DNA from: Isurus oxyrinchus
Lineage: Eukaryota
Reading direction: 5' to 3'
Assembly: GCA_026770705.1 (NCBI GenBank)
Contig: JANJGN010000646.1
Location: 248,001 to 312,000 of the forward strand
Length of the DNA: 64,000 nt
The notes under the pieces are model-generated. The model did no database searches. It was given only the letters and a program-made list of their open reading frames with translations, and was not told where the DNA came from. Each line of letters begins with the position of its first letter. Positions within the stretch are counted from its first letter, which is position 1. Positions 16,931-63,365 of the stretch are shown piece by piece. Both the position numbers and the translations under genes were made by a program.

Positions 16931-16939
16931 TCTCATTAA

Positions 16940-21905: not shown

Positions 21906-21939
21906 ACAACAAGAGAATGTTCAATTCTGTGTAACTCAC

Positions 21940-33105: not shown

Positions 33106-33187
33106 CTGGTGCTTCACAGAGAGTGGACTGGGGGTCAATACAATGTCACTGGTCCCTGAAACTCTCTCCTCCATCGCTGTCTTTCTC
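33106..33187 (-). CDS. Duplicate cytoplasmic exon 1 (tail 2)
   Basis: 82 nt, near-identical to 39271-39352 with intact splice sites; RKTAMEERVSGTSDIVLTPSPLSVKHQ. Confidence 0.65.
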
Positions 33188-37791: not shown

Positions 37792-38040
37792 TCAGTTTCG
37801 CTTGAATCTGATCTGTGCGTATTCCGTCTCCTCTTCCCTGTGGACAGACCCATCACCACTGGGCACCCTGAAGACTTGGGGATTGGCGTAGAGAAGCTCA
37901 GCGGGATTGTCAGGGTTCCCATGTCCAGCACCACCTCCCACTGGACCTTCAGAGAGACCCCGGGGAACTGGGGTCTCCCCCTCGCTAGTTGTGTCTCTGG
38001 TTGTGTTCCGGGGCTCAGAAATCAGCACGTTCTGTTTACC
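37792..38040 (-). CDS. Gene B terminal exon (tail 1): degenerate ITIM LLYANP plus ITSM-like TEYAQI
   Basis: 249 nt from the tctgtag acceptor to TGA; ...ELLYANPQVF...EETEYAQIRFKRN*. Confidence 0.85.
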   Translation of the reverse strand, partial: GKQNVLISEPRNTTRDTTSEGETPVPRGLSEGPVGGGAGHGNPDNPAELLYANPQVFRVPSGDGSVHREEETEYAQIRFKRN

Positions 38041-41000
38041 CTACAGAGAAATGGAAACAGAAGACATCCTCACATCATTTACTGGCACTGATAGGGTTAA
38101 ATTATTGTGCAGCCTCATTAGTGTCAGTCGTGTCTCAGTTGGTTTTACTCTCTCTCTCATATCATAAAAAAGAAACCACCTATGACAGGGCAGCACTCCC
38201 TCAGTACTGACCCCCGACAGCGCAGCACTCCCTCAGGACTGACCCTCTGTCAGTCTCGCACTCCCTCGGTAATGTCTCTGGCGAGTGCCGGCTTGGATTC
38301 TGCACTCAGGTGCCTGACGTGAGGCTCATTAACAAGAACCTTGTAATCAGAGAGAGGATGAGAGGGAAGAGAAAGAGAGAAAGGGATAGAGATAGGGTGT
38401 TATTAATCTATTAATGTATGTAATGTAAGTGGAAATTGTCTTTTTAAACAGGGGTTTAGTCTGTGGTTGTGTCTGTGAGTGTTTTAATTGGATTAAAGCC
38501 AGCCAGTCCGGGTACTTTGATGTCAAGTAGTTTTGAGATGTAAACAAAGAGGTAAAGGGGTAATTTCCATTTTTAAACAGAGCATTCAATGTCTGGGAGT
38601 GAAATCTTAAACGAATCAATGTTTATATTACTAATAAAATTGATACGATGAAGGGTGGAGTTCAAAGGTCCTGATGATTCAATGAGAATTTACATTCAAA
38701 GAGAAGCATTGGGTATAACTTGAGCAGTTTTGTGTGTGCAGAGCAGACGCTTGTAACATCAAAGCAGCTGTAAGCCTACACCTGTCTGCAAAGGAACCAA
38801 AGTGAAAGGAACCTCATTTGGAATTTGTGAGGTGAAAATGCTTTGCCTGGAATCTGCTTAAAGTCTATGGGTTGTCTTAGAGGAGATTAGTTTGAGAATT
38901 TGTTAAAAAGTTATGATAATACTAGTTTGTAGCCATGTGCATATGTTTAACTTGTGTTAATTAATAAATGTCTCATGTAGTTTGATATAAAACCATCTCG
39001 AGAACTGGTGTTCTTATTCCTGAATTTAGAGCTGCATCTCAAACATTCCACTGGGAAATATAGGTTATGACAGTTGTTTAAAGTTTCCCTCTGGGATTTT
39101 AAACAACAGCCTTTACCAGTTGTTGTGTCATAACAGAGAGACTGCATGATACTGAACCATTGCTGACTCCACAGGTACAAATCAGTGGGTAACTGGGCTG
39201 GGAATCTGGGACACGTGTTGTCTACACACTGAGATTGAAGCTTTGGAGTGAGTGTAAACAGCTCCTGTACCTGGTGCTTCACAGAGAGTGGACTGGGGGT
39301 CAATGCAATGTCTCTGGTCCCTGAAACTCTCTCCTCCATCGCTGTCTTTCTCCTGCAATAACACAATATCACACTGTGGTTATCATATAGCAGAGAATCA
39401 GTGCAGCACAGACACAGAGCCCACTGTAACCTTACACCAACAACTGGGACTGTCTCTTTAAATCACTTCTGCACAAAGCACAGAATCAAGAAGCTTGACA
39501 CCATCCAGGACAAAGCAGCCCGATTGATCTACACCCCATACACCACATTAAACATTCACTCCCTCCACCATGAACACACAGTGGCAGCAGTGTGTGTACC
39601 ATCTACAAGATGCACTGCAGCAAATCAGCAAGGCTCCTTCGACAGCTCCTTCCAAACCCACGACCTCTACCATCTAGAAGGACAAGGGCAGCAGACACAT
39701 GGGAACACCACCACCCGGAAGTTCCCCTCCAAGTCACTCACCATCCTGACTTGGAAATATATCACCGTTCCTTCACTGTCGCTGGGTTAACATCCTGGAA
39801 CTCTCTCTCTAACAGCACTGTGGGTGTACCAACACCACATGGACTGCAGCGGGTCAAGAAGGCAGCTCACCACCACCTTCTCAATGGGCAATTAGAGATG
39901 GGCAATTTAATAACGGCCTCACCATTGACAGTCACATTCGATTAAAGAATTTAAAATCTCACAGCTCAGGAGGAAGCCAGTCAGCCCATCGTGCCTGTGC
40001 TGGCCCTTTGTAAAAACTGTCCAATTAGTCCTAAACAAATGTTTATATTAAAATCAAGTTAAATCTTCAGACTTACTTTCTCACACAGATGAAGATGAAG
40101 ATTCCAGCCAGGAAAACACTCAACATGATCCCAGCCGTGAACAATCCTACTGTCCATTTACTGGAGTCTCTACCTGTAAAAACAGCCATTAATTACTGCA
40201 CTACAGGTTTACAATGATGCTCCGATGTATCTCGAGAAGCGATACACTCACTCAGTGTTTAAATACTCATTCTCGGGCAATGCTGACATTTATTGTCCAT
40301 CCCTAGTTTCCCCTTGAGAAGGTGGTGGGGAGTCTTCCTCCTGAACCACTGGTTTGTCCCAAACTGGGAGACCAGTTCAGAGGGCAGGTAAGAGTTAACC
40401 ATGTTGGTGTCTGAGACTGGAGTCACATATACACCCAGACCTGTTAAAATGGACAGGTTTCCCTCCCTTAAGATAATTAGTGACCCATATTATATATGTA
40501 ATTTCTATATATATGTATCAACTAACCTCCCTAAAATAATCAATTATCACCTCAATTTCATGCTGTTGTTTGTGGAATCTTGCTGTGCACAAATCAGCTG
40601 TTGCGTTTCCTACATGATGACAGTGAGCTCACTTTGAAACTGCTTCACTGGTTATCGAGCGTTTTGGGAATTCCTAAGTATTTTATCAACGCAAGTCTTA
40701 TTTTTCGATTTAATCCATGTAACATTTATATATAATATTTATCAATGTGATCCCTACAGCATAAATTTATAATATTTATCAATATAATCTATGTAACATT
40801 TATATATAATTTTTATCCATTTAATCTCTGTAATATTTATATATAATGTTTCTCGATTTAATCCATGTAACATTTATATATAATATTGCCCAATGTAATA
40901 TATGTAACATTTATATATATTTATCCATTTAATCTATGTAACATTTATATATAATATTTCTCAATGTAATCTATGTAACATTTATATATAATATTTCTCA

Positions 41001-44000
41001 ATGTAATCTATGTAATATTTATATATAATATTTAGTCGTTTGGGAGGAGAACCTGAGTATTGCTGAGAAAGGACATTTTGTCAAAGCTTTCTGTCTTGCA
41101 CCCAATGAAGCAGCTTATCTGGGGGAGAGGGTTCCAGATTTCCACTCCCCTTTGTGTGAAGAAGTGCTTCCTGACATCACCCCCTGAATGGCCTGGCTCC
41201 AATTTGACCAAGTGTTGCCATTGTCACATGAGATCAGGTGATTCAAAGCTTGGTCAAAGGGGTAAGTTCTAAAGAGCATTTTAGAGGAGGTAGAGAGAGA
41301 GGTGGAGAGGTTGAGGGAGGAAATTCTCGAGTTTAGGGATCAATCCAGCTGAGTGGAGATCGATCCTGAGCGAGTCTCTCACCTTTGACCCACACATACA
41401 CCTTGAACATGGCTTCCCCGTGTGGGTTTTGAACCGAGCAGGATGCAATCACTCCCCCCTCATCCTGGGGTCTCATCAGGGTGAGGGAACCAGTCACCAG
41501 ATGCCCATCTCTGACCTGCCACGACACAAAACCTCCGTGTGTTTGGTTACCACTGATGTTGGCACTGGGCAGGTGCCAGGTGAGGTCTCCGGGTGGGTTG
41601 GAGGTGGCCACACAGATGCAGGTGACCCCCTCTGATCTCCGAGTGCACTCCGACTGCTGGGAAATCTCCGGCTTATCTGAGGAGGGAAGGATAACAATAA
41701 GACAACGTCATAGCAAAGTTAGAGCGTAAGATAGAATCTTAACACTGAAACACTCATTCCTGCCTTTGTTACCTCTGCACTCAACTATCCCAACACTCTC
41801 CTGCCCGACCTCCCATCTTCCACTCTCCGTAAACATCAGCTCATCCCAAACTCTGCTGTCCCCATGTCCTAACTCACACCGAGTCCCGTTCACACATCAC
41901 TCCCTGTTGGTCACTGAGGTACACTGGCTCCCGGTCCGACAATGCCACAATTTTAAAATTCACATTGTTTCAAATCCCTCCTTACCCCCTCCCTATCTCT
42001 GATACCTCCTTCAGACCCTTCAACCCTCCCTATCTCTGTAACCTCCTCCAGCCCCTTCAACCCTCCCTATCTCTGTAACCTCCTCCAGCCCCTACAACCC
42101 TCCCTATCTCAGTAACCTCCTCCAGCCCCTTCAACCCTCCCTATCTCTGTAAACTCCTCCAGAACCTTCAACCCTCCCTATCTCTGTAACCTCCTCCAGC
42201 CCCTTCAACCCTCCCTATCTCTGTAACCTCATCCAGCCCTTACAACCCTCCCTATCTCTGTAACCTCCTCCAGCCCCTACAACCTTCCTTATCTCTGTAA
42301 CCTCATCCAGCCGATTCAACCGTCCCTATCTCTGTAACCTCCTCCAGCCCCTTCAACCTTCCTTATCTCTGTAAACTCCTCCAGCCTCTACAACCCTCCG
42401 AGATCTCTGTGCACCTCCAATTCCAGCTTCTTGACATTCCCCCGATTCCTATCGCTCCACCATTGGCAGCCGTGCCTTCAGCTGCCTGGATCCTAACCTC
42501 TGGAATTCCCTCCCTCATTTCTCACCTCCTTCGGACAAAATCTGACCACCACCAAAAGCATCTTCCCTTCACCCCCATCCCGTTGGCATTCCACAGGGAT
42601 CATTCCCTCCAGGACACCCTGGTCCACTCCTCCATCACCCCTAGCACCTCAACCCTCTCCGATGACATCTTCCCATGTATTTGCAGAAAGTGCAACACCT
42701 GCCCCTTTACTTCCTCCCCCCTCACTGTCCAATGACCCAAACACTCCTTCCAGGTGAAGCAGCGCTTCATGTACACTTCCTTCAATTTAATCTACTGCAT
42801 TCGCTGCTCCCAATGTGGTCTCCTCTACATTGGAGACACCAAACACAGACTGGGTGATCGCTCTGATGAACACCTTCGGTCTGTCCACAAGCATGACCCA
42901 GACCTCCCTGTCGCTTGCCATTTTAACACTCCACCCTGCTCTCATGCCCACATGTCCGTCCTTGGCCTGCTGCATTGTTCCAGTGAAGCCCAACACAAAC
43001 TGGAGGAACAACACCTCATCTTCCGACCTGGCACTTTACAGCCTTCCCGACTGAATATTGAATTCAACAATTTCAGATCATGAACTCTCTCCTCGATCTT
43101 CACTGCTTTTTGAACCCTTTTTTAATGTATTCATTTTAATTGTTTTTTTTGTTAACTGTTTTCCACTTATTTTTATTATTATTATTTGAAATTCATTTCC
43201 ATTTTTATTGATTGTTTTATCCGCAGATTTTAGTCTATTTTCGATCTTTATTCCCTCCACCGTCCCCTCCCCCCTGCCACACCCCCACGAGGGCCATCTG
43301 TCTCTTTCCAGAGTGCTTACCCTGGTCCGCCCATTATCACACTCTGCTTAATGTCACCATTAGCACCTCCTTTATCCAATACCACCACTGTTAACAACCC
43401 TTTGACCTTTTGTTTATGACATTTTTCACAATCTCTCCATTGCCTCCACCTATCGCTGGTTTTCTATCCAGCTCCACCTGTCCCATCGCCCCCCCTTAGA
43501 CAGGATATATTTCACCACATGTCTACTTCCCTTTAGCTCTGAAGAGGAGTCTTACGGACTCCAAACGCTAACCCTGTCTTTCTCTCCACAGATGCTGCCA
43601 GATGCTCAGAATCAGCTGGATGGACAGAAAGACCAATGAGTGGCTTAGATCAAGAGGAGACGTTCAGCAATTAAAAGGGTTGTTCAGGACAGTTAGAGAG
43701 AGAAAGGTCGTCAAGTATGGAGATTGGAAACGAAGACCTGACAGCCTTGTCCTCACAACCATTGAAGGAGAAACTGAGAGCAAAAACAGAAAGGGAGAGG
43801 AAAAATTGGGTGTGTGGATAACGTGGACTGAGCGAGGATTGAAGAAAACTGGATTAAAAACAACACGATCCCAATGGCTCCACGGAGACCACGGAGACAA
43901 CAAACAAACAAATGTATCTCCACACTCACATTCCACAGTGATGGTTATGAACCCCTCCACTGCTCCATGTTCATTCTCTGCCACACACTGATAATCTCCA

Positions 44001-47000
44001 GTGTCCCTGGATGTAACGTGAGGAATCACCAACCACAGCTCATTGTTGGAACTTGTTCTGTTCATTGGGACATTAAGATGTCGCCACGTCAGGTTAGAAG
44101 CTGGGAAGCTCTCGACAGAGCAGATTATCACTGCAGAATTCCCCGCAATTATATTGATCGATGAAGCGTTAATCATATCAAGAGAAGTAATTGAGAGATT
44201 CTGTGGTGCATCTAAAAATATATAAAGATTTTAATGTGAGCAAACACAGTGCACAGCAAAACTTCCTGTATCATCTCGCTGTAACTGATGCCTGTGTGCA
44301 TTTCTAGGCACCTTCTCTCAAGATAAGTTCCTATGTCACATTTACAATGGGCACTGCCTATGTAAACTGTCACACTGCAGGAGCATTCTCCCACCAGAGA
44401 CGCTGCCCATCCAGATTTAAAGAAACTGCCTTTCACATCCTCAGGATGTCCCCAAGGGCTTGACAGGCAATGAATTATATTTGATCGATGGAGCACTGAG
44501 GGGTAAATCTACAATTCTCTGTTAAGGAGGTTGCTCCATCCAATTCAGGGTCTTGTTGATCCGGAGTTTACCTTCCTTCAACACAGAATCGGAGCTGACA
44601 CCGAGACTCCAGTGCAGCACTGAGTGNNNNNNNNNNNNNNNNNNNNNNNNNNNNNNNNNNNNNNNNNNNNNNNNNNNNNNNNNNNNNNNNNNNNNNNNNN
44701 NNNNNNNNNNNNNNNNNNNNNNNNNNNNNNNNNNNNNNNNNNNNNNNNNNNNNNNNNNNNNNNNNNNNNNNNNNNNNNNNNNNNNNNNNNNNNNNNNNNN
44801 NNNNNNNNNNNNNNNNNNNNNNNNNNNNNNNNNNNNNNNNNNNNNNNNNNNNNNNNNNNNNNNNNNNNNNNNNNNNNNATGTGCGTGCTTACGTGTGTGT
44901 GTGTGTGTGTGTGTGCGTGTGTGTGTGTGCGTGTGTGTGTTGTGTGTGTGCGCGTGTGCGTGTGAATGTGCGTGCTTACATGTGTGTGTGTGTCTGTTGG
45001 TGTGTGTCTGGTCTGTGTAACCTGTAAACCTAACCCTTCCACACTGATGGTCACGAACACCCCCCACTACCAACAAATTTATCTCAGTAAGGAACATGGC
45101 ACTGCCAACCTCGTCAATACCATCTTCTAAACGGGGGATTGGGTAGGAATCTGGTTTTATTGCTGCATTAACCTTTCTGTAATCTATGCAGAATCTGGTT
45201 GGAAATGAAATACCTGCTCCTTTTTACCTCCCTCCCTACGATGGTATCGTTTTAACATATTGATGTGTCACAGCCGATTCTTTATTCTACAATCTGGGGT
45301 GTCTATCAAATAATTTACTTGACCAACCCTCCTAATTACCTTGTGGAGACCACTGAACCGCGCTTTCAGAGGCTCCCCCTGCCAAGGCAATGATACTAAC
45401 ACGTCATCCCCCTGGTTGTGATGTTCGGGTCACAGCTTGCCTGTCTGCCCCATTCCTTCATTTCTGTTTGAGAAACTATAAGATGTTCTTGTGCCACTTT
45501 GGAGGCTCCCATGAGCCGTTCCTGAAACATGGACACATCATCTGAAATAGAGGATTCATCCCTCTGTCCGGAATATCTTTCTTTGATGTATTTCAAACAG
45601 CCTCTTATCTCGTGTCCATAAGTTATTCCAAAAAGACTAAAACCTGCCGATTCAGTTGGTGAATCTCATGTGGGAAATACAAGAAATCCAGTCCTTTGTC
45701 CCAGTCATGGGGAGATCATGACAATAGCTTCAATCATTGTTTTGAGGGTTTGTTGGTCCCTCTCTAAAGATCCCTGTGTCTATGGATGATATGCTGTGGA
45801 CTTTAACTGTTTTATACCCAAATTACTCATTATGTTCGGAAAATTTTAAGACATAGAGATGGAACCTTGATCTGACTGGATCTCCAGCGGTAATCCATAA
45901 TGGGTAAAAAATTGGGTTAACTTCCCTATTACTACTTTAGCTGTAATTGTTCCTAAAGGGATGGTCTCTGGAAATCGAGTTGTCATATCCATCATAGTGA
46001 GGCCATACTGGAGTCCAGCTTTCATTTTCGATAATGGTCTAATACAGTCCACTAATGCTCGTATCCAATGGTAACGGACAATTAACTCACTGGAGGAGGG
46101 GAATCCACAAATATCCCCATTCTCAATGAAGGGGGAGCCCAGCACATCAGGGCAAAAGATAAGGCTGAAGCATTTGCTACAACAATTATCCATTTCTGTC
46201 TGGCGTAAAAATAAATCAGGAAATGGTGCTCAACCAGGGCTTACAAAAGAAATTAGGGATAGTATTAGATCCAGAGAGGAGACATAAAATTGCCAGGGGA
46301 AGCAGCAATGCTGAGGATTGGGAGCAGTTTAGAATTCAGCAAAAGTGGACAAAAAGATTGATCAAGAAGGGGAAAATGGAACATGGGAGTAAACTTGCAG
46401 GGAACGTAAAAACCGACTGTAAAAGCTTCTATAAATATGTGAAGAGAGAAAGATTAGCAGTGACCGATGTAGGTTCCTTGCAGTCAGAAATGGGGGAAAT
46501 TCTAATGAGAAACAAAGAAATGGCAGAAGAACTGAACATATATTTTGGTTCTGTCTTCACAAAAGAGGACACAAATAATTTCCCAGGAATGTTAGGGAAC
46601 CAAGTGTCTAGTGAGAGGGAGGAATTGAAGATAATCAGGATTAGTTTTAAAAAATGGAGCTGGAGAAATTAATGGGTTAAAGGTTGAACAGTCCCCAGGG
46701 CCTGAAAATCTACATCCCAGAGACTAACGGAAGTGACCCTGGAAATATTGGAAGCACTGGTGGTCATCCTCCAAAATTCTATAGGCTCTGGAGCAGTTCC
46801 TATAGATTGGAGGGTGGCAATTGTAACCCCACTATTTAAAATAGAAGGGAGAGAAAAAAACTGGGAATTACAGACCAGTTAGTCTAACATGGGGAAAACG
46901 CTAGAGCCTATTATATAAGGTGTGCTAACGGAACGCTTGGAAAGCATTAATGGGATTAGACAAAGTCAGCATGGGTTAATGAAAGGAAAACCATGCTTAA

Positions 47001-50000
47001 CTAATCTATTGGAGATTTTGAGGATGTAACTTGTGGAATAGATAAGGGATAACCAGTGGATGTGGTGTTTTTAGATTTCAAGAAGGCTTTTGATAAGGTC
47101 CCACATAAGAGGCTAGTGGGCAACATTAAAGCCCATGGGATTGGGGGTAATTTACTGGCATGGATTGAGAATTGGTCGACAGACAGGAAACAGAGGGTCA
47201 GAATAAATTAGTCTTTATCTGAGTGGCAGGCGGTGACCAGTGGTGTACCACAGCGATCCGTGCTTGGGACCTAACTATTCACGATATATTTAAATGACTT
47301 GGGTGAAGGAGCCAAGTGCAATATTTCCAGGTTTTCTGATGACACAACGCTGGGTAAGGGTGTGAGCTGTGAGGAGGATGCAAAGAGGCTTCAAGGCGAT
47401 TTAGACAAGTTGTGTGTGTGGGCAAACACATGGCAGATGATGTGGATGAATGTGACATTGTAGGCTTTGGTGTGAAAAACAGAAAGGCAGAGTATTATTT
47501 AAATGGTGATATAATGGGAAATGTGGATGTATAAAGGGATCTGGGTGTCCTTGTGCACTAGCCAATGAAAGTAAACAGGCAGGTGCAGCAAGTAATTCGG
47601 AAGGCAAATGGTATGTTGTCCTTCATTGCAAGAGGATTTGTGTTCAGGAGTAGGGATGTCTTACTGCAGTTATATAAGGTCTTGGTGAGACTGCACATGG
47701 GGTACTACGTGCCGTTTTGGTCTCCCTCCCTAAAAAAGGATAGACTTGCCGTCGAGAGAGCGCAGAGAAGGTTCTCTAGGCTGATACCAGGGGCGGCAGG
47801 ACTGTCGTATGAGGAGAATTGGTACGACTGGGTCTGTATTCACTAGAGTTTAGAAGAATGAGAGGAGACCTGAATAAACGTAAGAAATTCTAACAGAGAT
47901 AGACAGACTGGATGGAGGGAGGATGCATCCCTTGGTTGGGGAGTCTAAAACCAAGGGCGACAATCTCAGGATACAGGGCAGGCCATTTTGGACTGAGATA
48001 GGGAAACATTTCTTCACTGAGAGGGTGGTCAATCTGTGGAATTCTCCATCACAGAGGCTGTGGAGGCCGGGTCACTGAGTGTATTCAAGAAAGAAACTGA
48101 TAAATATTTTGATATTAGGGGCATCAAAGGGTACGGAGAGAAAGCGGGAATAAGGCTTTGAGATAGAGGGTCAGCCTTGATCATATTGAATGGCGGAGAA
48201 GGCTTGAAGGGCTGAATGTCCTAATCGTGCTCCTAGTTTCTATGTACCTAGGTATCTATAGAACTATCTCTCTCCGTGTTCTATTCTCATGTGACCTTGA
48301 GTAATTAATGATAAATACTATCTATTTACATTGCTAATATTAAACTTTTATACTACAACTCCCCCAAAATCTTTGACATCAATGAAGACAATATTTATAT
48401 TATCCTATATTGTCTTTTAAGTTCAACCTTGGCCCCCTCTGCCCTATCAAGTAGGCATAAACAATCCCAAGGCTCAATACAGGAAGAGCTCTCCCTGGTC
48501 AATATCACTAATAAAAAAGGACCTGTTTTGTCTTCAACCCAGTGATGTTTGTGGGATCTTGCTCTGCACATTGTATCCTATTACAGCTAATATAGAATCA
48601 AGGGTTTCAGTACTTACCTTGTACAGTTAGTACAAGGGTCCGCTCCGATGAAACAGATGGATATCTCACTCTGCAGCTGAGAGTGTGTCCGTGGTGTTTG
48701 AGTGATGGGATCAGGGTCAGAACAGAAGTATAGGTCAGAGTGACATCATGCTGAGTTACAGTGTTTGAGACTGATCCAGGTACGTCAGTGGGAGTGTCCC
48801 AGGTTAAGACAGGCGCTGCTGTTCCATTGCACGTTGTGTTGAAGGTGCAGCTTACATCCACACGCTTTCCTGCAATAATTTCAGCAGGGAATATCGTGGG
48901 TTTATCTGTGAAATCTAACAGACAGAGAATGGATCCTTTTAGAGAAATATAACGTGAAGCATCAGTTCAAATAGAAATCACAGTCCCACAAGAGAAAGCA
49001 CTTTTACAAGGATGATATCAGAACTGAGAGATTACAACGATCAGGAGAGACTTTCCTATTTTCAGACTTAGTGGAGTTTCTGTCACTCAGATGAATTCAC
49101 TTCCACTTTGAGACAATTGAATTGACAATCCCGGGTCAGGGTGGGGGATCAGCTCACAGTTCCTGACACACTGGCTTGTTACTTTCTCCGAAATCTGCCA
49201 GATTTAAATTCTATCCAGTTCCCAGCAGGAGAGAATCCATTTGAACCAATCACTGAACCGGCATTTAAAGCAGATGATCAGGTTATTGATCACATTGCTG
49301 TTTCTGGGAGCTTCCTGTGCACAAATTGGCTGCTGTGTTTCCTATATTACAACAAGGGCTACATTTCAAGAATTATTTCAATGGTTGTGAATCCATTTGC
49401 GATGTCCAGAGGTGGTGAAAGGCGCTATAGAAATGCAAATCTTTCTTTTGTTGATATGTAAGAATTTTAAACAGGATTAGGGAGATTGATGTAAGTGGAT
49501 AACCTGATAACATTGATGGACACAGTCAATACATTTAATCACTGATATTAAAGTGAGTATTAGAGGTTGTTTTAGGACTGAACTGGAAGCTATCACCAGG
49601 TTATTGAGAATCAGACAGCGTGTTATAATTAGCTGTGTTTTGTGTTAATATGTAAACGTCACAGTTTGTGTTATTTCCCATTGAGTGTTGAATGTGAATT
49701 GTTGAGTAATTATAACACAGCACTTACCAGAAACATGAAGCTGGGTTACAGGGTAATAGTTATGGCTCGGACCATTGTCAAATTCTATTCTGAAAAAATA
49801 AGGTCCTGCATCTTCCCGTCTGATGTTGTTTATAATCAGGGAACAGTCGCCATCTTTCAGGTCTCCAGACAGCCGGGTCCGATGGTGGAACCGTGGTAAC
49901 TCGTGACTGTGATCCTTGGAGTGAAAGGCAATGGGAGCCCAGGGAATCTGTTTCTCATTATTAAACCAGACTCCACCTCGCGGTTGGTTTTCCGGACACA

Positions 50001-53000
50001 ATGGATAACTGTAATGACATGGAATCTGTACACACGAACCTTCCTGTGCTGTCACCTCTCGTGGACTGTCATCTTTCCACTCTTGTGAGGGTTTATCTGG
50101 GGAGAGAAATCTCAATATTTAACTCTGGATGGTTTGTGGATCCACTAGACTCAAAATTTACTGATGAGGCTGAATTGGGGGGATGGTCAATACTGAGGAG
50201 AATGGCAACAAATTATTTTGGCAGGAAGAATAGAAAAACAGGATATTATTTAAATGGAGACAGGCTGCAGAATGCAGTACAGAGGGATCTGGGTGTCCTT
50301 GTACATGAATCACAGAAAGTCAGCATTCAGGAACACCACGGAATGAGGAAGGCAAGTGGAATGTTGGCCTTTATTGCAAAGGGATGGAGTATAAAAGGAG
50401 GGAAGTCTTGCAGCAGCTGCACAGGGCGTTGGTGAGATTGTATCAGGAGCAGTGTGTACAGTTCTGGTCTCCTTACTTAGGGAGGGATAGAGTTGCATTG
50501 GAGGCAGTTCAGAGGAGGTTCACTGGGCTGATTCCTGGGATTAAAGGGTTTGTCCTGTGAGGAAATGTTGAGCAGGTTGGGCCTGTATCCATTGGAGTTT
50601 AGAAGAATGAGGGGTGACCTTATTGAAACATATCCGATTCCGAGGGGGCTTGACAGGGTGGATGCTGGGAGGATGTTTCCCCCTCGTGGGGGAATCTAGA
50701 ACCAGGGAGCACAGTTTCGGAATGAGGGCTCTCCCATCTAAGACTAAGATGAGGAGGAATTTCCTCTCTCAGAGGGGCGCTAGCCTGTGGAATTCTCTTC
50801 CCCAGAGAGCAGTGGAGGCTGGGCCATTGAATAGACTCAAGGCTGAGTGAGGCAGGTTTTTGATCGACAAGGGAGTCAAGGGTTTGGGGGACAGGCAGGA
50901 AAATGGAGTTAAGGCCACAACCAGATCAGTGAGAGCAGGCTCGAGGGGCCGAATGGCCTGCTCCTGTCCCTATTTCTTATGTTCCTACATTCTTACCTTC
51001 TTAAAATATTAAAGCTGCAGAATAAACATGCAAGTGACTGACCCGCTCGACCCACCTTCCATCTGGGGCTGGAGGAGGTTACACAGATAGGGAGGTTTGT
51101 GGGGGCTGGAGGAGGTAACAGAGATAGGGAGGGCTGTAGATACTGGAGGACATTACGCAGATAGGGAGGGTGGTAGGACCTGGAGGAGGTTGCAGAGATA
51201 GGGAGGGCTATAGGGATTTGAGGAGTTTATGGAGATGGGGAACGTGTAGGGACTGGAGGAGGCTGCAAGGGCAGAGAGGGTTTTAGGGGCAGGAGGAGTT
51301 TACAGGGATAGGAAGAGTTGTAGGGGCTGGACGGATTGCAGAGGTAGGGAGGGTTGGAAAGGCTGGTGGAGGTTTCAGAGGTAGGGAAGGTTGCAGGGAC
51401 TGCAGGAGTTTACAGAGATGGGGGAGTTTTTGGGGCAGGATGGGGTTACAGAGATAGGGAGGGTTGTAGGGGCAGGACGAGGTTACATAGATATGGAGTG
51501 TGGCTGGGGCTGAGGGAGGCTACAGAGATAGGGAGGGTTATAATGGCTGGAGGAGTTACAGAGATGAAGGAAACTCTTAGGGACTGGAGGAGGTTACAGA
51601 GATAGGGAGGGTTGTAGTGGGCTGGAGGAGGTTACAGAAATATGAAGGGTTGTAAGAGATGGACCAGCTTACAGAGATAGGGAGAGGTATTCGGTCTGGA
51701 GGAGTTTGCAGAGATAGTGGAGGTTGTTAGGACTGGAGGAGGCTACAAATATCGCGAGGGTTATCGGGGCTTGAGGAGGTTAAAGAGATAGGGAGGGGTG
51801 TTGGGTCCGGAGGAGTTTGCAGTGATAGGAATGGTTTTCGGGATTGGAAGAGAGTACTGAGATAGGAGGGTTGTAGGGACTGGAGGAGTCTCCTGAGATA
51901 GGGAGGGTTGTAGGGACTGGAGGAGGCTCCTGAGATAGGGAGGGTTGTAGGGACTGGAGGAGGCTCCTGAGATAGAGAGGGTTGTAGGGACTGGAGGAGG
52001 CTCCTGCGATAGGGAATGTTGCCGTGGATGAAGATAAAGGAGGAGATTACTGTAATAGGGAGGAAAAATATTCAAAAATTTGGACATTGAGACTTTGCTT
52101 GACCAGGAGCCAGTCTCGGTCATCGAGCAGAGCGGGTGATAAGGGAACGGGACTTGGTGTGAGTAAGGACGTGGTCAGCAGTTTTGGATGGCCTCAAGTT
52201 TATGGAGTGTAGAGCATGTGTTGGAACAGTCGAGTCTGGAGGTAATGAAGGCGTGGATGAGGGTTTCAGCAGCAGATGAGCTGAGACAGGGTGAAGTCGT
52301 ACGACGTTATGGAGGTGGAAATAGACGGTGTTAGTGAGGGCGCAGATATGAGGCCGGAAGCTCATCTCAGGATCAAATGGGACAACAAAGCTGTGAACAG
52401 ATTGGCTTCAATCTCAGAGAGCTGCCAGGGAGAGGAATGGAATTGGTAGCGAGGGAACAGAGTTTGGAGCGGGGAATGAAGACAATGGCTTCAGTCTTTC
52501 CAATATTTAATTGGAGGGAATTTCTGCCCATCCAGTACTGGATGTCGGATAAGCAGCCTGATAATTTAGCAGCAGTGGAGGAGTCGAGAGAGGTGGTGGT
52601 GAGATAGAGCTGGGGATCCTCAGTGGACAGGTGAAAACTAACACTGTTCAGATGATGCTGCAAAGCCATTGCAAGTGATTCTCTGGCTACGATGAGATGG
52701 ATAAGAATGGAGCCAGGGGAGAGCAGTCCCACCCAGCTGGACGACAGTGGACAGGTGTTGGAGGAGGATGGTGTGGTCGAGCGTGTCAAAGGCTGCAGAC
52801 AGATCGAGAAGGACGAGGAGGGAAAGTTGACCTTTGTCACAGTCACACAGGATGCCATTTGTGACCTTGATAAGAGCTGTTTCAGCACAGTGGCTGGGGT
52901 GGGAACCTGATTGGAGGGATTCAAACATGGAGTTCTGGGAAAGATGGAACCGGATTCGGGAGATGGAAACACGTTCAAGGACTTTGGAGGGGAAAGAGAG

Positions 53001-56000
53001 GCTGGAGATGGGACGGGGGTTTACACGGACAGTGTGAGGGGTGGAAGGTGTAGTGGGGAGGAGACACTTCACTCAGGGGGGAGGTGTCATCACCCCTCAG
53101 CTCGGTTTACGTTACAGCTATGATGTGGATTCAATCACACACAATAAGCTCATGGATCTGGGAGCAGAAATAGACAAATCATTAAAAATAGTGACGCTGG
53201 TTAACACGGCCAAAAAACAAGCAAATCAAACACTATTATTTCCCATTGAGTGTTGAATGTGAATTGTTGAGTAATTATAACACAGCACTTACCAGAAACG
53301 TGAAGCTGGGTTACAGGGTAATAGTTATGGCTCGGACCATTGTCAAATTCTATTCTGAAAAAATAAGGTCCTGCATCTTCCCGTCTGATGTTGTTTATAA
53401 TCAGAGAACAGTCGCCATCTTTCAGGTCTCCAGACAGCCGGGTCCGATGGTGGAACCGTGGTAACTCGTGACGGTGACCCTTGGAGTGAAAGGCAATGGG
53501 AGCCCAGGGAATCTGTTTCTCATTATTAAACCAGACTCCACCTCGCGTTTGGTTTTCCAGACACGATGGATAACTGTAATGACATGGAATCTGTACACAC
53601 GAACCTTCCTGCGCTGTCACCTCTCGTGGAGTGTCACCTTTCCACTCTTGTGAGGGTTCAGCTGGGGAGAGAAATCTCAATATTTAACTCTGGATGGTTT
53701 GTGGATCCACTAGACTCAAAATTTACTGATGAGGCTGAATTGGGGGGATGGTCAATACTGAGGAGAATGGCAACAAATTATTTTGGCAGGAAGAATAGAA
53801 AAACAGGATATTATTTAAATGGAGACAGGCTGCAGAATGCAGTACAGAGGGATCTGGGTGTCCTTGTACATGAATCACAGAAAGTCAGCATTCAGGAACA
53901 CCACGGAATGAGGAAGGCAAGTGGAATGTTGGCCTTTATTGCAAAGGGATGGAGTATAAAAGTAGGGAAGTCTTGCAACAGCTGCACAGGGTGAGATTGT
54001 ATCAGGAGCAGTGTGTACAGTTCTGGTCTCCTTACTTATGGAGGGATAGAGTTGCATTGAATGCAGTCCAGAGGAGGTTCACTGGGCTGATTCCTGGGAT
54101 TAAAGGGTTTGTCCTGTGAGGAAATGTTGAGCAGGTTGGGCCTGTATCCATTGGAGTTTAGAAGAATGAGGGGTGACCTTATTGAAACATATCCGATTCC
54201 GAGGGGGCTTGACAGGGTGGATGCTGGGAGGATGTTTCCCCCTCGTGGGGGAATCTAGAACCAGGGAGCACAGTTTCGGAATGAGGGCTCTCCCATTTAA
54301 GACTGAGATGAGGAGGAATTTCCTCTCTCAGAGGGGCGCTAGCCTGTGGAATTCTCTAACCCAGAGAGCAGTGGAGGCTGGGCCATTGAATAGACTCAAG
54401 GCTGAGTGAGGCAGGTTTTTGATCGACAAGGGAGTCAAGGGTTTGGGGGACAGGCAGGAAAATGGAGTTAAGGCCACAACCAGATCAGTGAGAGCAGGCT
54501 CGAGGGGCCGAATGGCCTGCTCCTGTCCCTATTTCTTATGTTCCTACATTCTTACCATCTTAAAATATTAAAGCTGCAGAATAAACATGCAAGTGACTGA
54601 CCCGCTCGACCCACCTTCCATCAGGGGCTGGAGGAGGTTACACAGATAGGGAGGTTTGTGGGGGCTGGAGGAGGTAACAGAGATAGGGAGGGCTGTAGAT
54701 ACTGGAGGAGGTTACGCAGAGAGGGAGGGTGGTAGGACCTGGAGGAGGTTGCAGAGATAGGGAGGGCTGTAGGGATTTGAGGAGTTTATGGAGATGGGGA
54801 GCGTGTAGGGACTGGAGGAGGCTGCAAGGGCAGAGAGGGTTTTAGGGGCAGGCGGAGTTTACAGGGATAGGAAGAGTTGTAGGGGCTGGACGGATTGCAG
54901 AGGTAGGGAGGGTTGGAAAGGCTGGTGGATGTTTCAGAGGTAGGGAAGGTTGCAGGGACTGGAGGAGTTTACAGAGATGGGGGAGTTTTTGGGGCAGGAT
55001 GGGGTTACAGAGATAGGGAGGGTTGTAAGGGCAGGACGAGGTTACATAGATATGGAGTGTGGCTGGGGCTGAGGGAGGCTACAGAGATAGGGAGGGTTAT
55101 AATGGCTGGAGGAGGTTACAGAGATAAAGGAAACTCTTAGGGACTGGAGGAGGTTACAGAGATAGGGAGGGTTGTAGTGGGCTGGAGGAGGTTACAGAAA
55201 TATGAAGGATTGTAAGAGATGGACCAGCTTACAGAGATAGGGAGAGGTATTCGGTCTGGAGGAGGTTGCAGAGATAGGGGAGGTTGTTAGGACTGGAGGA
55301 GGCTACAAATATCGCGAGGGTTATCGGGGCTTGAGGAGGTTAAAGAGATAGGGAGGGGTGTTGGGTCCGGAGGAGTTTGCAGTGATAGGAATGGTTTTCG
55401 GGATTGGAAGAGAGTACTGAGATAGGAGGGTTGTAGGGACTGGAGGAGTCTCCTGAGATAGGGAGGGTTGTAGGGACTGGAGGAGGCTCCTGAGATAGGG
55501 AGGGTTGTAGGGACTGGAGGAGGCTCCTGAGATAGAGAGGGTTGTAGGGACTGGAGGAGGCTCCTGCGATAGGGAATGTTGCCGTGGATGAAGATAAAGG
55601 AGGAGATTACTGTAATAGGGAGGAAAAATATTCAAAAATTTGGACATTGAGACTTTGCTTGACCAGGAGCCAGTCTCGGTCATCGAGCAGAGCGGGTGAT
55701 AAGGGAACGGGACTTGGTGTGAGTAAGGACGTGGTCAGCAGTTTTGGATGGCCTCAAGTTTATGGAGTGTAGAGCATGTGTTGGAACAGTCGAGTCTGGA
55801 GGTAATGAAGGTGTGGATGAGGGTTTCAGCAGCAGATGAGCTGAGACAGGGTGAAGTCGTACGACGTTATGGAGGTGGAAATAGACGGTGTTAGTGAGGG
55901 CGCAGATATGAGGCCGGAAGCTCATCTCAGGATCAAATGGGACAACAAAGCTGTGAACAGATTGGCTTCAATCTCAGAGAGCTGCCAGGGAGAGGAATGG

Positions 56001-59000
56001 AGTTGGTAGCGAGGGAACAGAGTTTGGATCGGGGAATGTAGACAATGGCTTCAGTCTTTCCAATATTTAATTGGAGGGAATTTCTGCCCATCCAGTACTG
56101 GATGTCGGATAAGCAGCCTGATAATTTAGCAGCAGTGGAGGAGTCGAGAGAGGTGGTGGTGAGGTAGAGCTGGGGATCCTCAGTGGACAGGTGAAAACTA
56201 ATACTGTTCAGATGATGCTGCAAAGCCATTGCAAGTGATTCTCTGGCTACGATGAGATGGATAAGAATGGAGCCAGGGGAGAGCAGTCCCACCCAGCTGG
56301 ACGACAGTGGAGAGGGGTTGGAGGAGGATGGTGTGGTCGAGCGTGTCAAAGGCTGCAGACAGATCGAGAAGGACGAGGAGGGAAAGTTGACCTTTGTCAC
56401 AGTCACACAGGATGCCATTTGTGACCTTGATAAGAGCTGTTTCAGCACAGTGGCTGGGGTGGGAACCTGATTGGAGGGATTCAAACATGGAGTTCCGGGA
56501 ATGATGGAACCGGATTCGGGAGATGGAAACACGTTCAAGGACTTTGGAGGGGAAAGAGAGGCTGGAGATGGGACGGGGGTTTACACGGACAGTGTGAGGG
56601 GTGGAAGGTGTAGTGGGGAGGAGACACTTCACTCAGGGGGGAGGTGTCATCACCCCTCAGCTCGGTTTACGTTACAGCTATGATGTGGATTCAATCACAC
56701 ACAATAAGCTCATGGATCTGGGAGCAGAAATAGACAAATCATTAAAAATAGTGACGCTGGTTAACACAGCCAAAAAACAAGCAAATCAAACACTATTATT
56801 TCCCATTGAGTGTTGGATGTGAATTTTTGAGTAATTATAACACAGCACTTACCAGAAACGTGAAGCTGGGTTTCAGGGGAAACGTTATGGCTCGGACCAT
56901 TGCCAAATTTTATCGTGAAAAAATAAGGTCCTGCATCTTCCCGTCTGATGTTGTTTATAATCAGGGAACAGTCGCCATCTTTCAGGTCTCCAGACAGCCG
57001 GGTCCGATGGTGGAACTGTGATAACTCGCGACTGTGACCCTTGGAGTGAAAGGCTATAGACCATTTAGACCATTTGTTCTGTATGTATCTTCTCATTTTC
57101 CAGATTCCGACCTGTGGTTTCTTTACCAAATCTGATGGATAACTGTAATGACATGGAATCTGTACACACGAACCTTCCTGTGCTGTCACCTCTCGTGGAG
57201 TGTCACCTTTCCACTCTTGTGACAATCCAACTGGGGAGAGAAATATCAATATTTAACACTGGATGTTTTGTTGATCCACTAGACTCGATATCCACCCCCT
57301 CCATCACTGGGGCACAGTGGCTGCAGTGTGGACCATCTACAGGACACACAATGAACTCCACAAGGTATCACACCAGATGGAAGAGAATCCTGGACACAAA
57401 AGCGGAAAAGTTCATTCTACATTGGTTCATGGTCCTCAGGACCCTGTTTGTGCAGAAGCCTGTTCTCCAACAGAACTGAAGTTGGGGACAATGCATTTGG
57501 AATTCCACTGTCCGGGGCATTGGGTTAACTTGCTGATTTTGTTTTCAATCTAACATCTATTTTTGGTCTGTTGCCTTTAAGGGACTGTAACTGGGAGTCA
57601 GGTTAATTAGGAATTTTAGGAGTTATGATAGCAGTCTTGTAGTTATGTATGTGCTTGAAATCCTTTATTTTGATGACAAATATGTTAATTTATTGTTTTA
57701 AATCTCTAAAGGTATTGGTGGAGTTATTGCTTCTGGAGTAAGTGCACACATCTCATAATAAATACCAATTGCAAAATCATTATGATAGTGTGACCAGGTT
57801 TCTCTCAGGGACTTGGTCTGCCTGGCACACATCACCTGCCAAGTGATAACACTGTTGTAGTATGCCTTTCAGGGACAGCAGCATGACATCACTCGAGGGG
57901 AAGTGTGTCATGTTATTTTTAGGAACTGGTGTTCGCTTAAGTAAGTTCTATGTGTATTTGTGTGTGTTAGGCAAAAGGTCTATCTTTAAGTTCAAGTTTA
58001 GTTTGTATTTCTGTATTTGGGTGTTGAGAAAAGGGGGAACTTGAGTTAAAAAGAAGCCAGCATTCCATTGAGGTTTTATGACTGTTGAAGGGAAGTCAAA
58101 ACAAATACAAGGCGTAAGAAACTGTGCTGTTGCCTAGCAACAGTGATGCAGAGGGAAGGACCCACAGAGACAGAAAAAAACAGAAAAGTACTTTCAGTTC
58201 TGTTGAAAGGAGTTGCCAGGAGAAGCAGCAAAGGAGCGGGACAGATAGTCAGTCCCAAAGTAAAGAAGAAGCCAAAACTATCGAGTTTGACAGGAGAAAT
58301 GGCCCAAGAAAACCTTCTAGTCAAATCTGGAAAAGGCCCTGTAAAATGAAGTTAAGAGTGAGGAGCAGAAGAAGGCTTCAAGCATAAAGGGAGAAAGCAG
58401 CAGGACACAGACCTAAAGCAAAATAGGCTTGTGAGAAGCCAGAAGATCCTAGGAAACACCGCAGGTTGGTGACTCATTACTACGGCCATGTGAAGCATGG
58501 TGTTCCATTGACACGGCTGAGCATTGGAGAGACAGGGCGTAGAAGGAAGGCTGAATGCACGTGGCGATCCAGGGGGCAGGAACATGGGAAGGAGAGTTTG
58601 AAATAGTGAAGGTGGACCCTTGTGGAAGGTGTCTGAGTGAAAGTGTCATGTTGGAGAAGATTCCAAAGAGAGTTCTTGGAGAGTGGAGATTGGAAACTCT
58701 CATATGAAAGAAGCTTTTCAGTGAGACGGGTTGGCTCACAGTGTAACAAGCGTCTGGGGACAGATGAGACATAGAAGTTGTTTCAAGTGGGCTCTGCCAC
58801 TTGCTTTCAGAATGTTGTGTCCCTGACCACAGGTCGTCTATTGGTTTACACGGACTGTGTACTTAGTGTGAACATGAGAATATAAGATAGTTATCGTAAT
58901 TTGTGTTCTACTTATGTATCTGTAAAGGTATATTCTGGGTGAAGGAGTAATTTCATATAGTTTGTCTTTCCTAGTTTAATAAATGTTTTATTCTTTTGTT

Positions 59001-62000: not shown

Positions 62001-62549
62001 GACACTGAACAGCCTGTCTATTCTAGGAGCTGCTGTGTTGTCTTCATGGGAAATTCTGACAAAATCAGCAAAAGACACAAAATTTCAGGGCATTGTTATC
62101 CGAGTCCCAGCATCAGGATAGACCTCATCCCCCAGTTGGTATTCCTGATTCTCTATTAAGCGGATCGCTCCCCTGTCACTGGCTGAACAACACTGGCTCC
62201 CAGTCCAGCAATGACTCAAATTTCAAATTCTCATCATCGAGTTCTTACCCCACCATCCCCCCTCTACACTCTCTATCTGTGTAACCTCCTCCAACCCTAA
62301 AACCCTCTGTGATCTCTGCTCTCCTCCAATTCTGCTGTCAGACAGGGAGTCAGTGTATATCAGTGAGCACAGGGGTGATGGGTGAATGGGACTTGGTGTG
62401 AGTTTGTACACTGGCTCACTGCTGAATCGGTTCCCAATCACACTCAATAAGAATGATCTTTTACAAAGACTATTAGCCATAAAACTGTCCGAGCTGACGA
62501 CGTTATTACCTTCGAGAAGTGACAGGAGGAAGTAGGATTTCCCGATCAT
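37792..62549 (-). CDS. Gene B: Siglec/MAG-like Ig receptor, spliced CDS of 10 coding exons, 818 aa (leader-V-V-V-C2-C2-Ig-TM-tail)
   Basis: Exons 62549-62510, 57230-56853, 53661-53293, 50096-49728, 48914-48618, 44211-43930, 41676-41383, 40173-40077, 39352-39271, 38040-37792. All have AG/GT boundaries and compatible phases. Lengths sum to 2457 nt = 819 codons including the stop. Confidence 0.85.
39271..39352 (-). CDS. Gene B cytoplasmic exon 1 (tail 1)
   Basis: 82 nt, phase 2 to 0; RKTAMEERVSGTRDIALTPSPLSVKHQ. Confidence 0.75.
40077..40173 (-). CDS. Gene B transmembrane exon
   Basis: 97 nt, ttttacag/gtaagt; GRDSSKWTVGLFTAGIMLSVFLAGIFIFICVRK, an uncharged hydrophobic helix. Not in the ORF track. 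Confidence 0.85.
40710..41035. repeat. AT-rich tandem repeat of about 38 bp
   Basis: Repeated AATCTATGTAACATTTATATATAATATTT units. Confidence 0.85.
41383..41676 (-). CDS. Gene B membrane-proximal Ig exon resembling MAG (Siglec-4) domain 5
   Basis: 294 nt, phase 1-1; YKPEISQQSECTRRSEGVTCICVATSNPPGDLTWHLPSAN...CSVQNPHG. The S-x-C...C-x-C...SNP pattern recalls MAG D5 (recognised from memory, not by search). Confidence 0.8.
42540..43602 (+). mobile_element. Penelope-like element, GIY-YIG endonuclease 3' fragment
   Basis: NLIYCIRCSQCGLLYIGDTKHRLGDR..EH...PVACHFN (ORF 42754-43083). Confidence 0.85.
43930..44211 (-). CDS. Gene B C2-set Ig exon
   Basis: 282 nt, phase 1-1; APQNLSI...IICSVESFPASNLTW...DTGDYQCVAENEHG. 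Confidence 0.9.
48618..48914 (-). CDS. Gene B C2-set exon (Siglec domain-2 type)
   Basis: 297 nt, phase 1-1; DFTDKPTIFP...VSCTFNTTCNGTAAPVLTW...HHGHTLSCRV, carrying the extra Cys typical of Siglec D2. Confidence 0.9.
49728..50096 (-). CDS. Gene B V-set exon 3 (Arg intact)
   Basis: 369 nt, phase 1-1; SCVQIPCHYSYPLC...YFFRIEF. Confidence 0.9.
52040..53060 (-). mobile_element. L2-type LINE RT fragment; copy at about 55600-56620
   Basis: ETALIKVTN...SLLVLLDLSAAFDTLDH and WMGRNSLQLNIGKTE motifs. Confidence 0.8.
53293..53661 (-). CDS. Gene B V-set exon 2 (Arg intact)
   Basis: 369 nt, phase 1-1; SCVQIPCHYSYPSC...GDCSLIINNIRREDAGPYFFRIEF. Confidence 0.9.
56853..57230 (-). CDS. Gene B V-set exon 1 (distal; essential Arg replaced by Thr)
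   Basis: 378 nt, phase 1-1, cccag/gtaagt boundaries. Siglec V hallmarks SCVQIPC and GDCSL are present, but the F strand reads YFFTIKF. Confidence 0.9.
62510..62549 (-). CDS. Gene B leader (signal peptide) exon, MIGKSYFLLSLLE
   Basis: ATG at 62549, 40 nt, phase-1 donor G|gtaata. Joins the V exon to give MIGKSYFLLSLLEVGLS-QEW. Confidence 0.8.
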
Positions 62550-62999
62550 TGTCCACTCCCAGATAATTCATAAGCTTCTGACTCTCAAACTCTGAAAGAG
62601 AAAGGAGTTAATGAGACCTCACCTCTTGTCCGACAGCTCTCAAGAGATCAGAACTGTTTTTGGACAATGTCTTTACAGACTAATTTGATTCTCTGTGGGA
62701 TGATAGGTACTCTGCAGAGAGTTACAAGGCTTTAAGAAAGAAAAACATTAAAGGATTTGCATTTCTATAGCACCTTTCACCACCTCAAGACGTCCCAAAG
62801 CTCATGTCTCTGCACTTCCCTCATCCCTTGAGCTAGAAAGATGTTCTGTACAACAGACTTGAGCCTCACACCCAGATCTCAATAATCAGTAGAAATCTTT
62901 CAAAGGCATCAATCATTGGAATCTGTCTTTATAAAGTCACAACATCAACAAAGGACGGTGTTGGTCGTGGAAGTGAATTCCAATTGTTCTGTTACTTAC

Positions 63000-63140
63000 C
63001 CAGGACCTGTCCGACTGCTCGCCTGGAGAGGAACTGCCCACACGCTCTGCTTGGGCTGAATGACCTCTTCCTGTGCTGCTCCCTCTGTGTGTTTAATTAG
63101 AAAGGGTGGATGTGTCACTGTGAGACAAAATGAGGAAGTG
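63000..63140 (-). promoter_or_regulatory. Gene B putative promoter / non-coding exon 1 with PU.1/ETS-like site
   Basis: Same module; donor at 63000, GAGGAAGT at 63132-63139. Confidence 0.55.
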
Positions 63141-63365
63141 GGTAATCAGTGAGAAGATCGAGCATGTTTTGTGCTCTCAGCAAAACGTTTACCATGTGTG
63201 ATCTGTCAGCTCATATTTGGGCAGCTGTAGTCATGAAGCTTCTCCATTGGCTCCGTGGGATTAGACTCCTCCCCCTCACCACAGAGGCTGAAACTCAGGC
63301 GATAGAGTCCCCAATACAGGTCTCGGGCCGTATGATACATTTCAACGACCCCTGTTATCATTACG

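What the first reader, a model, noticed from the sequence alone, without database searches (positions are those of the whole stretch)
56853..57230. Outermost V domain of gene B has lost the sialic-acid-binding arginine and has a remodelled binding face
Seen: YFFRIEFDNGPSHNYYPV in the inner V domains becomes YFFTIKFGNGPSHNVSPE (AGA to ACG at 56914-56916). The C-C' region is replaced by a longer basic/aromatic WKMRRYIQNKWSKWSIAF, while the framework is nearly unchanged. Known: the F-strand Arg is essential for sialic acid binding in Siglecs. Inference: the exposed domain binds another ligand or evades sialylated pathogens while the inner domains keep Arg. Clustered nonsynonymous change suggests diversifying selection.
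Basis: partly seen in the sequence, partly recalled or inferred. Interest (0 to 1): 0.7.

Follow-up and report, generated by a model that had tools for sequence, protein, structure and literature searches.

The report
Shark Siglec heads repeatedly lose arginine
In a shark family of several hundred sialic-acid-receptor (Siglec-like) gene copies, one type of outermost domain has lost the arginine that grips the sugar, several times over, while the inner domains keep it, so the tip of these immune receptors likely reads a different, still unknown ligand.

Summary
In detail: Thr105 (ACG) sits at the Siglec F-strand Arg site of the first V domain of an intact 818-aa gene; V2 and V3 keep Arg. It is not a one-gene event. 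The exon belongs to an N-terminal V class with a long basic/aromatic C-C' hairpin ('MRR'). On contig C52, 28 of 47 such exons lack the Arg (Thr 16, Ser 10, Met 1, Gly 1; three or four origins), whereas 66 sampled inner exons hold 64 Arg and 2 Lys. Of 74 Arg-less exons, 69 are intact; they sit on inhibitory-type and activating-type tails; one Thr exon is spliced to an inner V in a public run. Corrections: the hairpin is older than the Arg loss (present with Arg here and in basking and white shark), and diversifying selection is not shown once gene conversion is allowed for. Arg loss in Siglecs is known (human Siglec-XII, ape Siglec-5/14); a position-specific, subfamily-wide, repeated loss in tandem-V receptors was not found in my searches. 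The scan noted a similar single case elsewhere in this genome (e1-9511875). Ligand untested.

The parts
62510..62549 (-). Gene B leader exon (MIGKSYFLLSLLE)
   Evidence: same leader in annotated shark Siglec-like proteins
56853..57230 (-). V1 exon, MRR class, Thr105 in place of the sialic-acid-binding Arg; Lys44, Lys107, Val116-Ser117; Siglec-type Cys21, Cys26, Cys87 kept
56914..56916 (-). ACG (Thr105) codon at the canonical Arg site
   Evidence: 48 genomic matches
57058..57099 (-). C strand to C' strand hairpin (residues 44-57, KMRRYIQNKWSKWS), class signature shared with Arg-bearing domains
53293..53661 (-). V2 exon, inner class, Arg (AGA), extra BC-loop Cys
49728..50096 (-). V3 exon, inner class, Arg (AGA), extra BC-loop Cys
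48618..48914 (-). C2-type domain 1 exon
43930..44211 (-). C2-type domain 2 exon
41383..41676 (-). C2-type domain 3 exon
40077..40173 (-). Uncharged transmembrane exon
39271..39352 (-). Cytoplasmic exon 1
37792..38040 (-). Last exon: degenerate proximal ITIM (LLYANP) and distal ITSM-like motif (TEYAQI), stop
   Evidence: same tail form in white shark proteins P0012, P0087
28269..33187 (-). Second, open copy of the two cytoplasmic exons (33187-33106; 28517-28269) with a canonical ITIM (LLYANI) and TEYTQI; possible alternative tail
   Evidence: use not shown

Best explanation
The exon is the Arg-less outermost domain of an intact tandem-V shark Siglec-like receptor and belongs to an N-terminal domain class that has lost this Arg several times, likely because its exposed face now binds a ligand other than canonical sialic acid while the inner domains are predicted to keep sugar binding. 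Shown: position of Thr, intact gene, class membership, repeated loss confined to first-position domains, spread over different signalling tails, gene conversion, one spliced Thr transcript. Inferred: the order of events (the long basic/aromatic C-C' hairpin arose first in the lineage shared with basking and white shark, the Arg then became dispensable, and Arg-less heads were amplified by duplication and moved between genes by conversion); loss of canonical sialic-acid binding in V1 (from established Siglec biochemistry); an anionic or protein ligand for the hairpin (from its charge and aromatics only).
For: Thr aligns with the Siglec Arg; model from 46 sequences (pLDDT 86.9) matches MAG and sialoadhesin best (Z 18.3 and 18.0, rmsd 1.6). 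Gene B is an open 818-aa frame with GT/AG at all internal junctions. Of 228 distinct V exons fetched, 74 of 108 MRR-class exons lack Arg (Thr 51, Ser 10, Met 7, Gly 6; sample enriched for Thr by design), but of 105 inner exons 103 have Arg and 2 Lys. Census of all 47 MRR motif hits on C52: 28 non-Arg. Tree without the codon: Met nested in Thr, Ser separate, Gly twice, so three or four origins. No Arg-less MRR exon had a V upstream in the DNA fetched; for 61 of 74 the next V was read whole and all 61 have Arg. Eight first-position V exons of other types in multi-V genes all keep Arg, so plain redundancy does not predict the asymmetry. 69 of 74 Arg-less exons are intact, against 27 of 34 Arg-bearing ones of the class; residues 1-31 remain under purifying selection (allele ratio 0.46, p 0.007). 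F-G region constrained in inner V (0.43, p 0.004) but not in the MRR class (0.73, n.s.). Thr exon spliced to an inner V in run X2. Precedent for Arg-independent and protein ligands: Siglec-6 (PMC10122656, passages), Siglec-5 with streptococcal beta protein (PMC3190825, abstract).
Against: No ligand or binding data. Counted as independent events the contrast is modest: 4 of 4 events p 0.04, 4 of 5 with the inner Lys p 0.12. Positive selection is not robust: M2a beats M1a (2dlnL 47.4) but recombination is present (p about 0.001), distinct-allele N/S is 0.73 and nonsynonymous sites are no more homoplastic than synonymous ones. Purifying selection on the inner Arg codon itself is not significant (omega 0.6, CI 0.1-1.9), and 83 of 103 inner exons have Arg with His rather than Tyr at the G-strand aromatic position, so inner-domain sugar binding is assumed. 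19 of 47 MRR exons on C52 and 10 of 11 in other sharks keep Arg, so the class has not abandoned it wholesale. The transcript is one contig (depth 6) with 4 differences from gene B.
Confidence: 0.45

Rival explanations
1. Relaxed constraint only: with one to six Arg-bearing V domains behind it, V1 is a redundant spacer; Arg losses drifted and were multiplied by segmental duplication.
For: Recombination-insensitive N/S near or below 1 in all regions; near-identical copies show recent amplification (mean pS 0.044 among 33 Thr exons); only three or four origins.
Against: Redundancy should hit inner domains and other first-position domains too: 0 of 105 inner exons and 0 of 8 other first-position exons of multi-V genes have a non-basic residue. 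The class keeps a distinctive, length-variable hairpin across several lamniform species.
Confidence: 0.25
2. The positive charge moved: Lys107 and Lys44 replace Arg105, so the Thr/Met heads still bind sialic acid or a bacterial nonulosonic acid in a shifted pose.
For: All 58 Thr/Met exons have Lys107 and 56 have Lys44, against 1 of 34 Arg exons of the class; by the usual V-set strand register (recalled, not measured on the model) both lie on the same outward face as residue 105.
Against: Ser and Gly heads have Tyr44/Glu107; Lys107 also occurs with Arg in other sharks; linkage in one ancestral haplotype explains the association.
Confidence: 0.13
3. Escape: selection removed the Arg so that sialic-acid-coated pathogens cannot engage the inhibitory receptor.
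For: Site 105 falls in the omega>1 class (posterior 0.97; site omega 3.7-4.0); 12 of 16 Thr heads on C52 sit on uncharged anchors of the tyrosine-tail types; such pressure is argued for human Siglecs (PMC6288428, passages).
Against: 7 of 10 Ser heads and 2 of 16 Thr heads sit on Arg-containing, activating-type anchors; V2/V3 keep Arg and could still be engaged; the omega signal is confounded by conversion.
Confidence: 0.12
4. Sequencing error or decaying pseudogene.
For: The cluster holds broken copies (gene A V1 is frameshifted); some near-identical copies on different contigs may be haplotype duplicates.
Against: 48 ACG matches, 16 on one contig; open 818-aa frame; spliced Thr contig in an independent run; 47 of 51 Thr exons intact.
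Confidence: 0.03

Closest known systems
Human Siglec-XII (SIGLEC12; two V-set domains, R122C)
   Same: Tandem V-set Siglec whose essential Arg is lost so that sialic acid is not recognised (PMC6288428, passages).
   Different: One gene, one mutation, often followed by null alleles; here dozens of intact copies, four replacement residues, and Arg kept in the inner domains.
Great-ape Siglec-5 (and the Siglec-5/14 and 11/16 pairs)
   Same: Arg mutated in ape Siglec-5; paired inhibitory/activating receptors homogenised by gene conversion; a sialic-acid-independent bacterial protein ligand is known (PMC6288428 passages; PMC3190825 abstract).
   Different: Single V domain, so loss removes sugar binding from the whole receptor; pairs rather than a family of several hundred copies with three or more tail types.
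Siglec-6 non-canonical pocket
   Same: Ligand binding that does not need the canonical Arg (PMC10122656, passages).
   Different: Siglec-6 keeps the canonical Arg and its second site lies at the V/C2 interface; nothing here shows such a site.
MAG (Siglec-4) and sialoadhesin V domains
   Same: Best structural matches of the model (Z 17-18).
   Different: Conserved single-copy genes with one V domain and the Arg; 27-28% identity only.
Annotated elasmobranch 'Siglec-like' gene models (basking, white, cat sharks, rays)
   Same: Same leader, tandem V exons, tails; up to 78% identity; MRR hairpin in basking and white shark.
   Different: 138 V domains in 86 proteins: 128 Arg, 9 Lys, 1 Ser, no Thr; names are automatic, no function tested.

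Membership tests
Siglec family (by descent and fold) | N-terminal V-set domain of Siglec type followed by C2-type domains, type I membrane protein | tested here: met
   Pfam V-set and Ig_CD22 above cut-off; best PDB sequence and fold hits are Siglecs; leader-V-V-V-C2-C2-C2-TM-tail
Siglec family (by descent and fold) | Intra-sheet B-E disulfide, no F-strand Cys, and an inter-domain Cys (features recalled) | tested here: met
   Cys21, Cys26, Cys87 invariant in 46 sequences, Phe at 104; candidate partner Cys in V2, V3 and C2-1; bonds not observed
Siglec family (by descent and fold) | Essential F-strand Arg in the N-terminal V domain | tested here: not met
   Thr105 in V1; Arg only in V2 and V3. 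By the primate convention this would be a Roman-numeral Siglec (PMC6288428)
Siglec family (by descent and fold) | G-strand aromatic next to the sugar site (role recalled) | tested here: inconclusive
   His114 in V1, V2, V3; Tyr in 17 of 103 inner exons; register against CD33 is uncertain by one residue
Siglec family (by function) | Binds sialic acid | not testable with these tools
   No binding data for any domain
Inhibitory CD33-related Siglecs | Proximal ITIM plus distal ITIM-like/ITSM motif | tested here: inconclusive
   First tail LLYANP (degenerate) + TEYAQI; downstream second tail LLYANI + TEYTQI; splicing choice unknown
CD33-related Siglec clade (orthology) | Phylogenetic or syntenic placement with mammalian CD33-related genes | not tested
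   Sequence hits favour Siglec-5/CD33, fold hits MAG/sialoadhesin, by small margins
Paired receptors | Near-identical heads on inhibitory-type and activating-type anchors | tested here: met
   On C52, Thr heads: 8 anchor A, 4 anchor B, 2 Arg anchor, 2 Gln anchor; Ser heads: 7 Arg anchor, 3 anchor A; signalling itself untested

The most novel reading that the evidence does not exclude
Lamniform sharks have turned a Siglec cluster into a large germline repertoire of two-input receptors: a variable, conversion-shuffled N-terminal head that has given up sialic acid and senses microbial or allogeneic ligands through a basic/aromatic hairpin, stacked on inner V domains that still check for self sialic acid, and wired to either activating or inhibitory tails.
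Probability: 0.28. Interest if true: 0.78.

Novelty: new variant of a known kind. Interest (0 to 1): 0.5.

Why it matters
Siglec dogma puts sugar binding in the one N-terminal V domain through one Arg, and fish are said to have about four regular Siglecs and no inhibitory CD33-related ones (PMC7226832, abstract and passages; teleosts only). Here a shark has several hundred Siglec-like copies in which natural Arg/Thr/Ser/Gly variants sit on nearly the same domain and inner V domains keep the Arg. That gives matched natural pairs to test whether inner V domains can bind sialic acid, what Arg-less Siglecs bind, and why the Arg keeps being lost (an open question for human Siglec-XII and ape Siglec-5).

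Tried and rejected
Single-sequence fold (pLDDT 66.9, C strand as helix) was discarded for the alignment-based model. Whole-exon site models were not accepted as proof of positive selection: recombination, allele counts and homoplasy comparison do not back them; the run with codon 105 left out of the 3' tree (omega 12.5) is inflated by a poor tree and not used. The MRR motif count genome-wide (199) includes chance hits on large contigs (23 in the reversed control) and was used only on C52. First exon joining had wrong borders and was redone. The regex survey of other sharks missed a few domains and was redone by alignment. Run search: no RNA holder on record; X1, X5, X10, X23 showed only AGA contigs at the site, X13 laid nothing, X17 did not cover the site; contigs drop rare variants, so this is no evidence of absence. 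'Near'-length protein search gave 3 proteins, the two new ones with Arg. Tail type does not separate Arg-less from Arg-bearing heads in any clear way. Seven literature searches found no study of shark Siglec expansion or Arg loss; subscription papers are not covered and no supplements were read. No complex prediction was run, as no partner is known.

Full report
Setting. The window is G000:C646:248001-312000. Its closest annotated proteins are Siglec-like gene models of basking and white shark at 70-78% identity, so the source is a shark, probably lamniform (inference from homology). The finding lies on the minus strand in gene B: leader 62549-62510, V1 57230-56853, V2, V3, three C2-type exons, an uncharged anchor and two cytoplasmic exons. 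Joined, they give an open frame of 818 residues with GT/AG at all internal junctions. The tail has a degenerate ITIM (LLYANP) and TEYAQI; this form is old (white shark P0012, P0087; 124 genomic matches). A second open pair of cytoplasmic exons with LLYANI lies downstream.

Observation. V1 has ACG (Thr105) where V2 and V3 have AGA. Thr105 aligns with the Arg of YFFR in Siglec-5 and CD33 and with a column that is Arg in at least 90% of 46 aligned shark sequences. The model built from that alignment (pLDDT 86.9; strand F 100-108, C 39-49, C' 52-61) matches MAG and sialoadhesin best (Z 18.3 and 18.0, rmsd 1.6). By the usual V-set register (recalled) the outward neighbours of 105 are Phe103, Lys107, Ile42 and Lys44; no Arg is in place. 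The canonical Arg is required for sialoside binding in Siglecs (PMC10122656, passages), so loss of canonical binding in V1 is inferred, not shown.

The family. Exact motif counts in this assembly: 493 leader matches and 570 F-strand matches, of which 48 ACG, 6 ATG, 6 AAG and 510 with G in the middle of the codon (of the first 100 listed, 99 Arg and 1 Ser); a wider pattern gave 8 GGA. Counts may include haplotype duplicates and pseudogenes, and miss variants of the motif. I fetched 190 loci; the first 150 and the window gave 228 distinct V exons, chosen around Thr exons, their closest relatives and C52 motif hits, so this set is not a random sample.

Two V classes. 108 exons have the long W-x-M-R-R hairpin (MRR class); 106 of them had no V upstream in the DNA fetched, and the two inner ones are frameshifted. 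74 of the 108 lack Arg: Thr 51, Ser 10, Met 7, Gly 6. Of 105 inner exons, 103 have Arg and 2 Lys. The least biased figure is the census of all 47 MRR motif hits on contig C52: Thr 16, Ser 10, Met 1, Gly 1, Arg 19, against 64 Arg and 2 Lys in 66 inner exons sampled there (Fisher p 7e-12, but copies are not independent). A leader was seen upstream of 35 of the 74; for 61 the next V was read whole and all 61 have Arg. A tree without the codon nests Met in Thr, puts Thr on a second, shorter-hairpin background, Ser in its own group and Gly in two places: three or four origins. As events the contrast is modest (p 0.04 to 0.12). Eight first-position exons of other types in multi-V genes keep Arg; of eight single-V exons, 5 have Arg, 2 Lys and 1 (broken) Ser.

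The hairpin came first. It occurs with Arg in 34 exons here and in basking and white shark (11 domains: 10 Arg, 1 Lys). Across 86 other shark and ray proteins, 138 V domains give 128 Arg, 9 Lys, 1 Ser and no Thr (the database shows one protein per 90% cluster, so variants can be hidden).

Function or decay. 69 of 74 Arg-less exons are intact, against 27 of 34 Arg-bearing MRR exons and 95 of 103 inner ones. In public run X2 a 137-base contig (depth 6, 4 differences from gene B) keeps ACG and runs straight into the first 31 bases of an inner-type V exon: a spliced Thr-class transcript, from one sample, of a paralogue or allele. Other runs laid showed only AGA contigs or did not cover the site. 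On C52 the 16 Thr heads sit on four anchor types (8 gene-B type, 4 second uncharged type, 2 with Arg, 2 with Gln) and the 10 Ser heads on 7 Arg anchors and 3 gene-B type, as expected of paired receptors that trade heads.

Selection. My own codon models (74 unique MRR exons, 83 other unique exons; broken exons left out) favour a class with omega 3.1 in MRR exons (2dlnL 47.4) with site 105 in it (0.97), and a weaker one in the others. But recombination is present (p about 0.001); by segment, residues 36-62 give omega 0.85 and no positive class, while 63-98 and 99-125 keep a signal. Measures that ignore the tree do not confirm it: pairwise pN/pS 0.79 overall and 1.08 for F-G in MRR, 0.37 in inner exons; distinct-allele N/S 0.73 for MRR overall and for F-G, 0.43 for inner F-G (p 0.004); nonsynonymous homoplasy equals synonymous. 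V1 against V2 in the window: pS 0.67, pN 0.55 in residues 32-56; 7 nonsynonymous and 1 synonymous change in 99-125. What stands is release of the F-G face from constraint in the MRR class; diversifying selection is possible, not shown.

Mechanism. Most likely (0.45) the MRR head has another ligand, so its Arg is dispensable, while inner V domains carry any sialic-acid sensing. The asymmetry argues against plain redundancy (0.25), since inner domains are as redundant and are not hit. A moved charge (Lys44, Lys107; 0.13) fits only Thr/Met heads. Pathogen escape (0.12) fits poorly with activating-type anchors. Error or decay is nearly excluded (0.03).

Known and new. Arg loss is known for human Siglec-XII and ape Siglec-5, and paired Siglecs evolve by conversion (PMC6288428, passages); protein and Arg-independent ligands exist (PMC3190825 abstract; PMC10122656 passages). 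The whale shark genome paper mentions Siglecs once, in a list (PMC8455134, passage). Seven searches found nothing on shark Siglec expansion or position-specific Arg loss. Earlier scan notes on this genome report a single similar case, Arg anchors and head shuffling; I reproduced the anchor and conversion patterns independently. Verdict: new variant of a known kind, interest 0.5.

Noticed in passing
window 28269-33187 (-); also G000:C52 near 365251, 911652, 1929820, 2655469: Duplicated cytoplasmic exons: a first tail with degenerate ITIM (LLYANP) followed by a second with canonical ITIM (LLYANI); alternative splicing could switch signalling strength.
   Followed up: partly
   Followed up: partly
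G000:C52:737228 and 3200424: The Arg of the activating-type anchor is Gln in two genes, both with the short-hairpin Thr head.
   Followed up: no
G000:C52:1871385-1886674 and 3539149-3554450: Genes with a Ser head followed by six Arg-bearing V exons at about 2.3 kb spacing and an Arg anchor.
   Followed up: partly
L135, L137, L146, L149 (C52): A related first-position class (WYVK) whose hairpin varies by three-residue repeats (14, 17, 20 residues) and keeps Arg.
   Followed up: no
window 8875-9242 (-): Gene A V1 is a frameshifted MRR-class exon with Arg; an intact near copy lies at G000:C52:4102808.
   Followed up: partly
window 15923-22003 (-): Orphan 3' gene fragment: partial C2 exon, second-type anchor (20680-20581) and cytoplasmic exons like basking shark P0039, with no V exon of its own in the window.
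   Followed up: no
window 28700-32890 and 63358-63690: Minisatellite with a 33-base unit giving a long open frame; it lies between the two exons of the second tail, so probably intronic.
   Followed up: no
window 515-16070 vs 43924-63147: Genes A and B are tandem duplicates at 90-97% identity over long blocks, introns included.
   Followed up: partly
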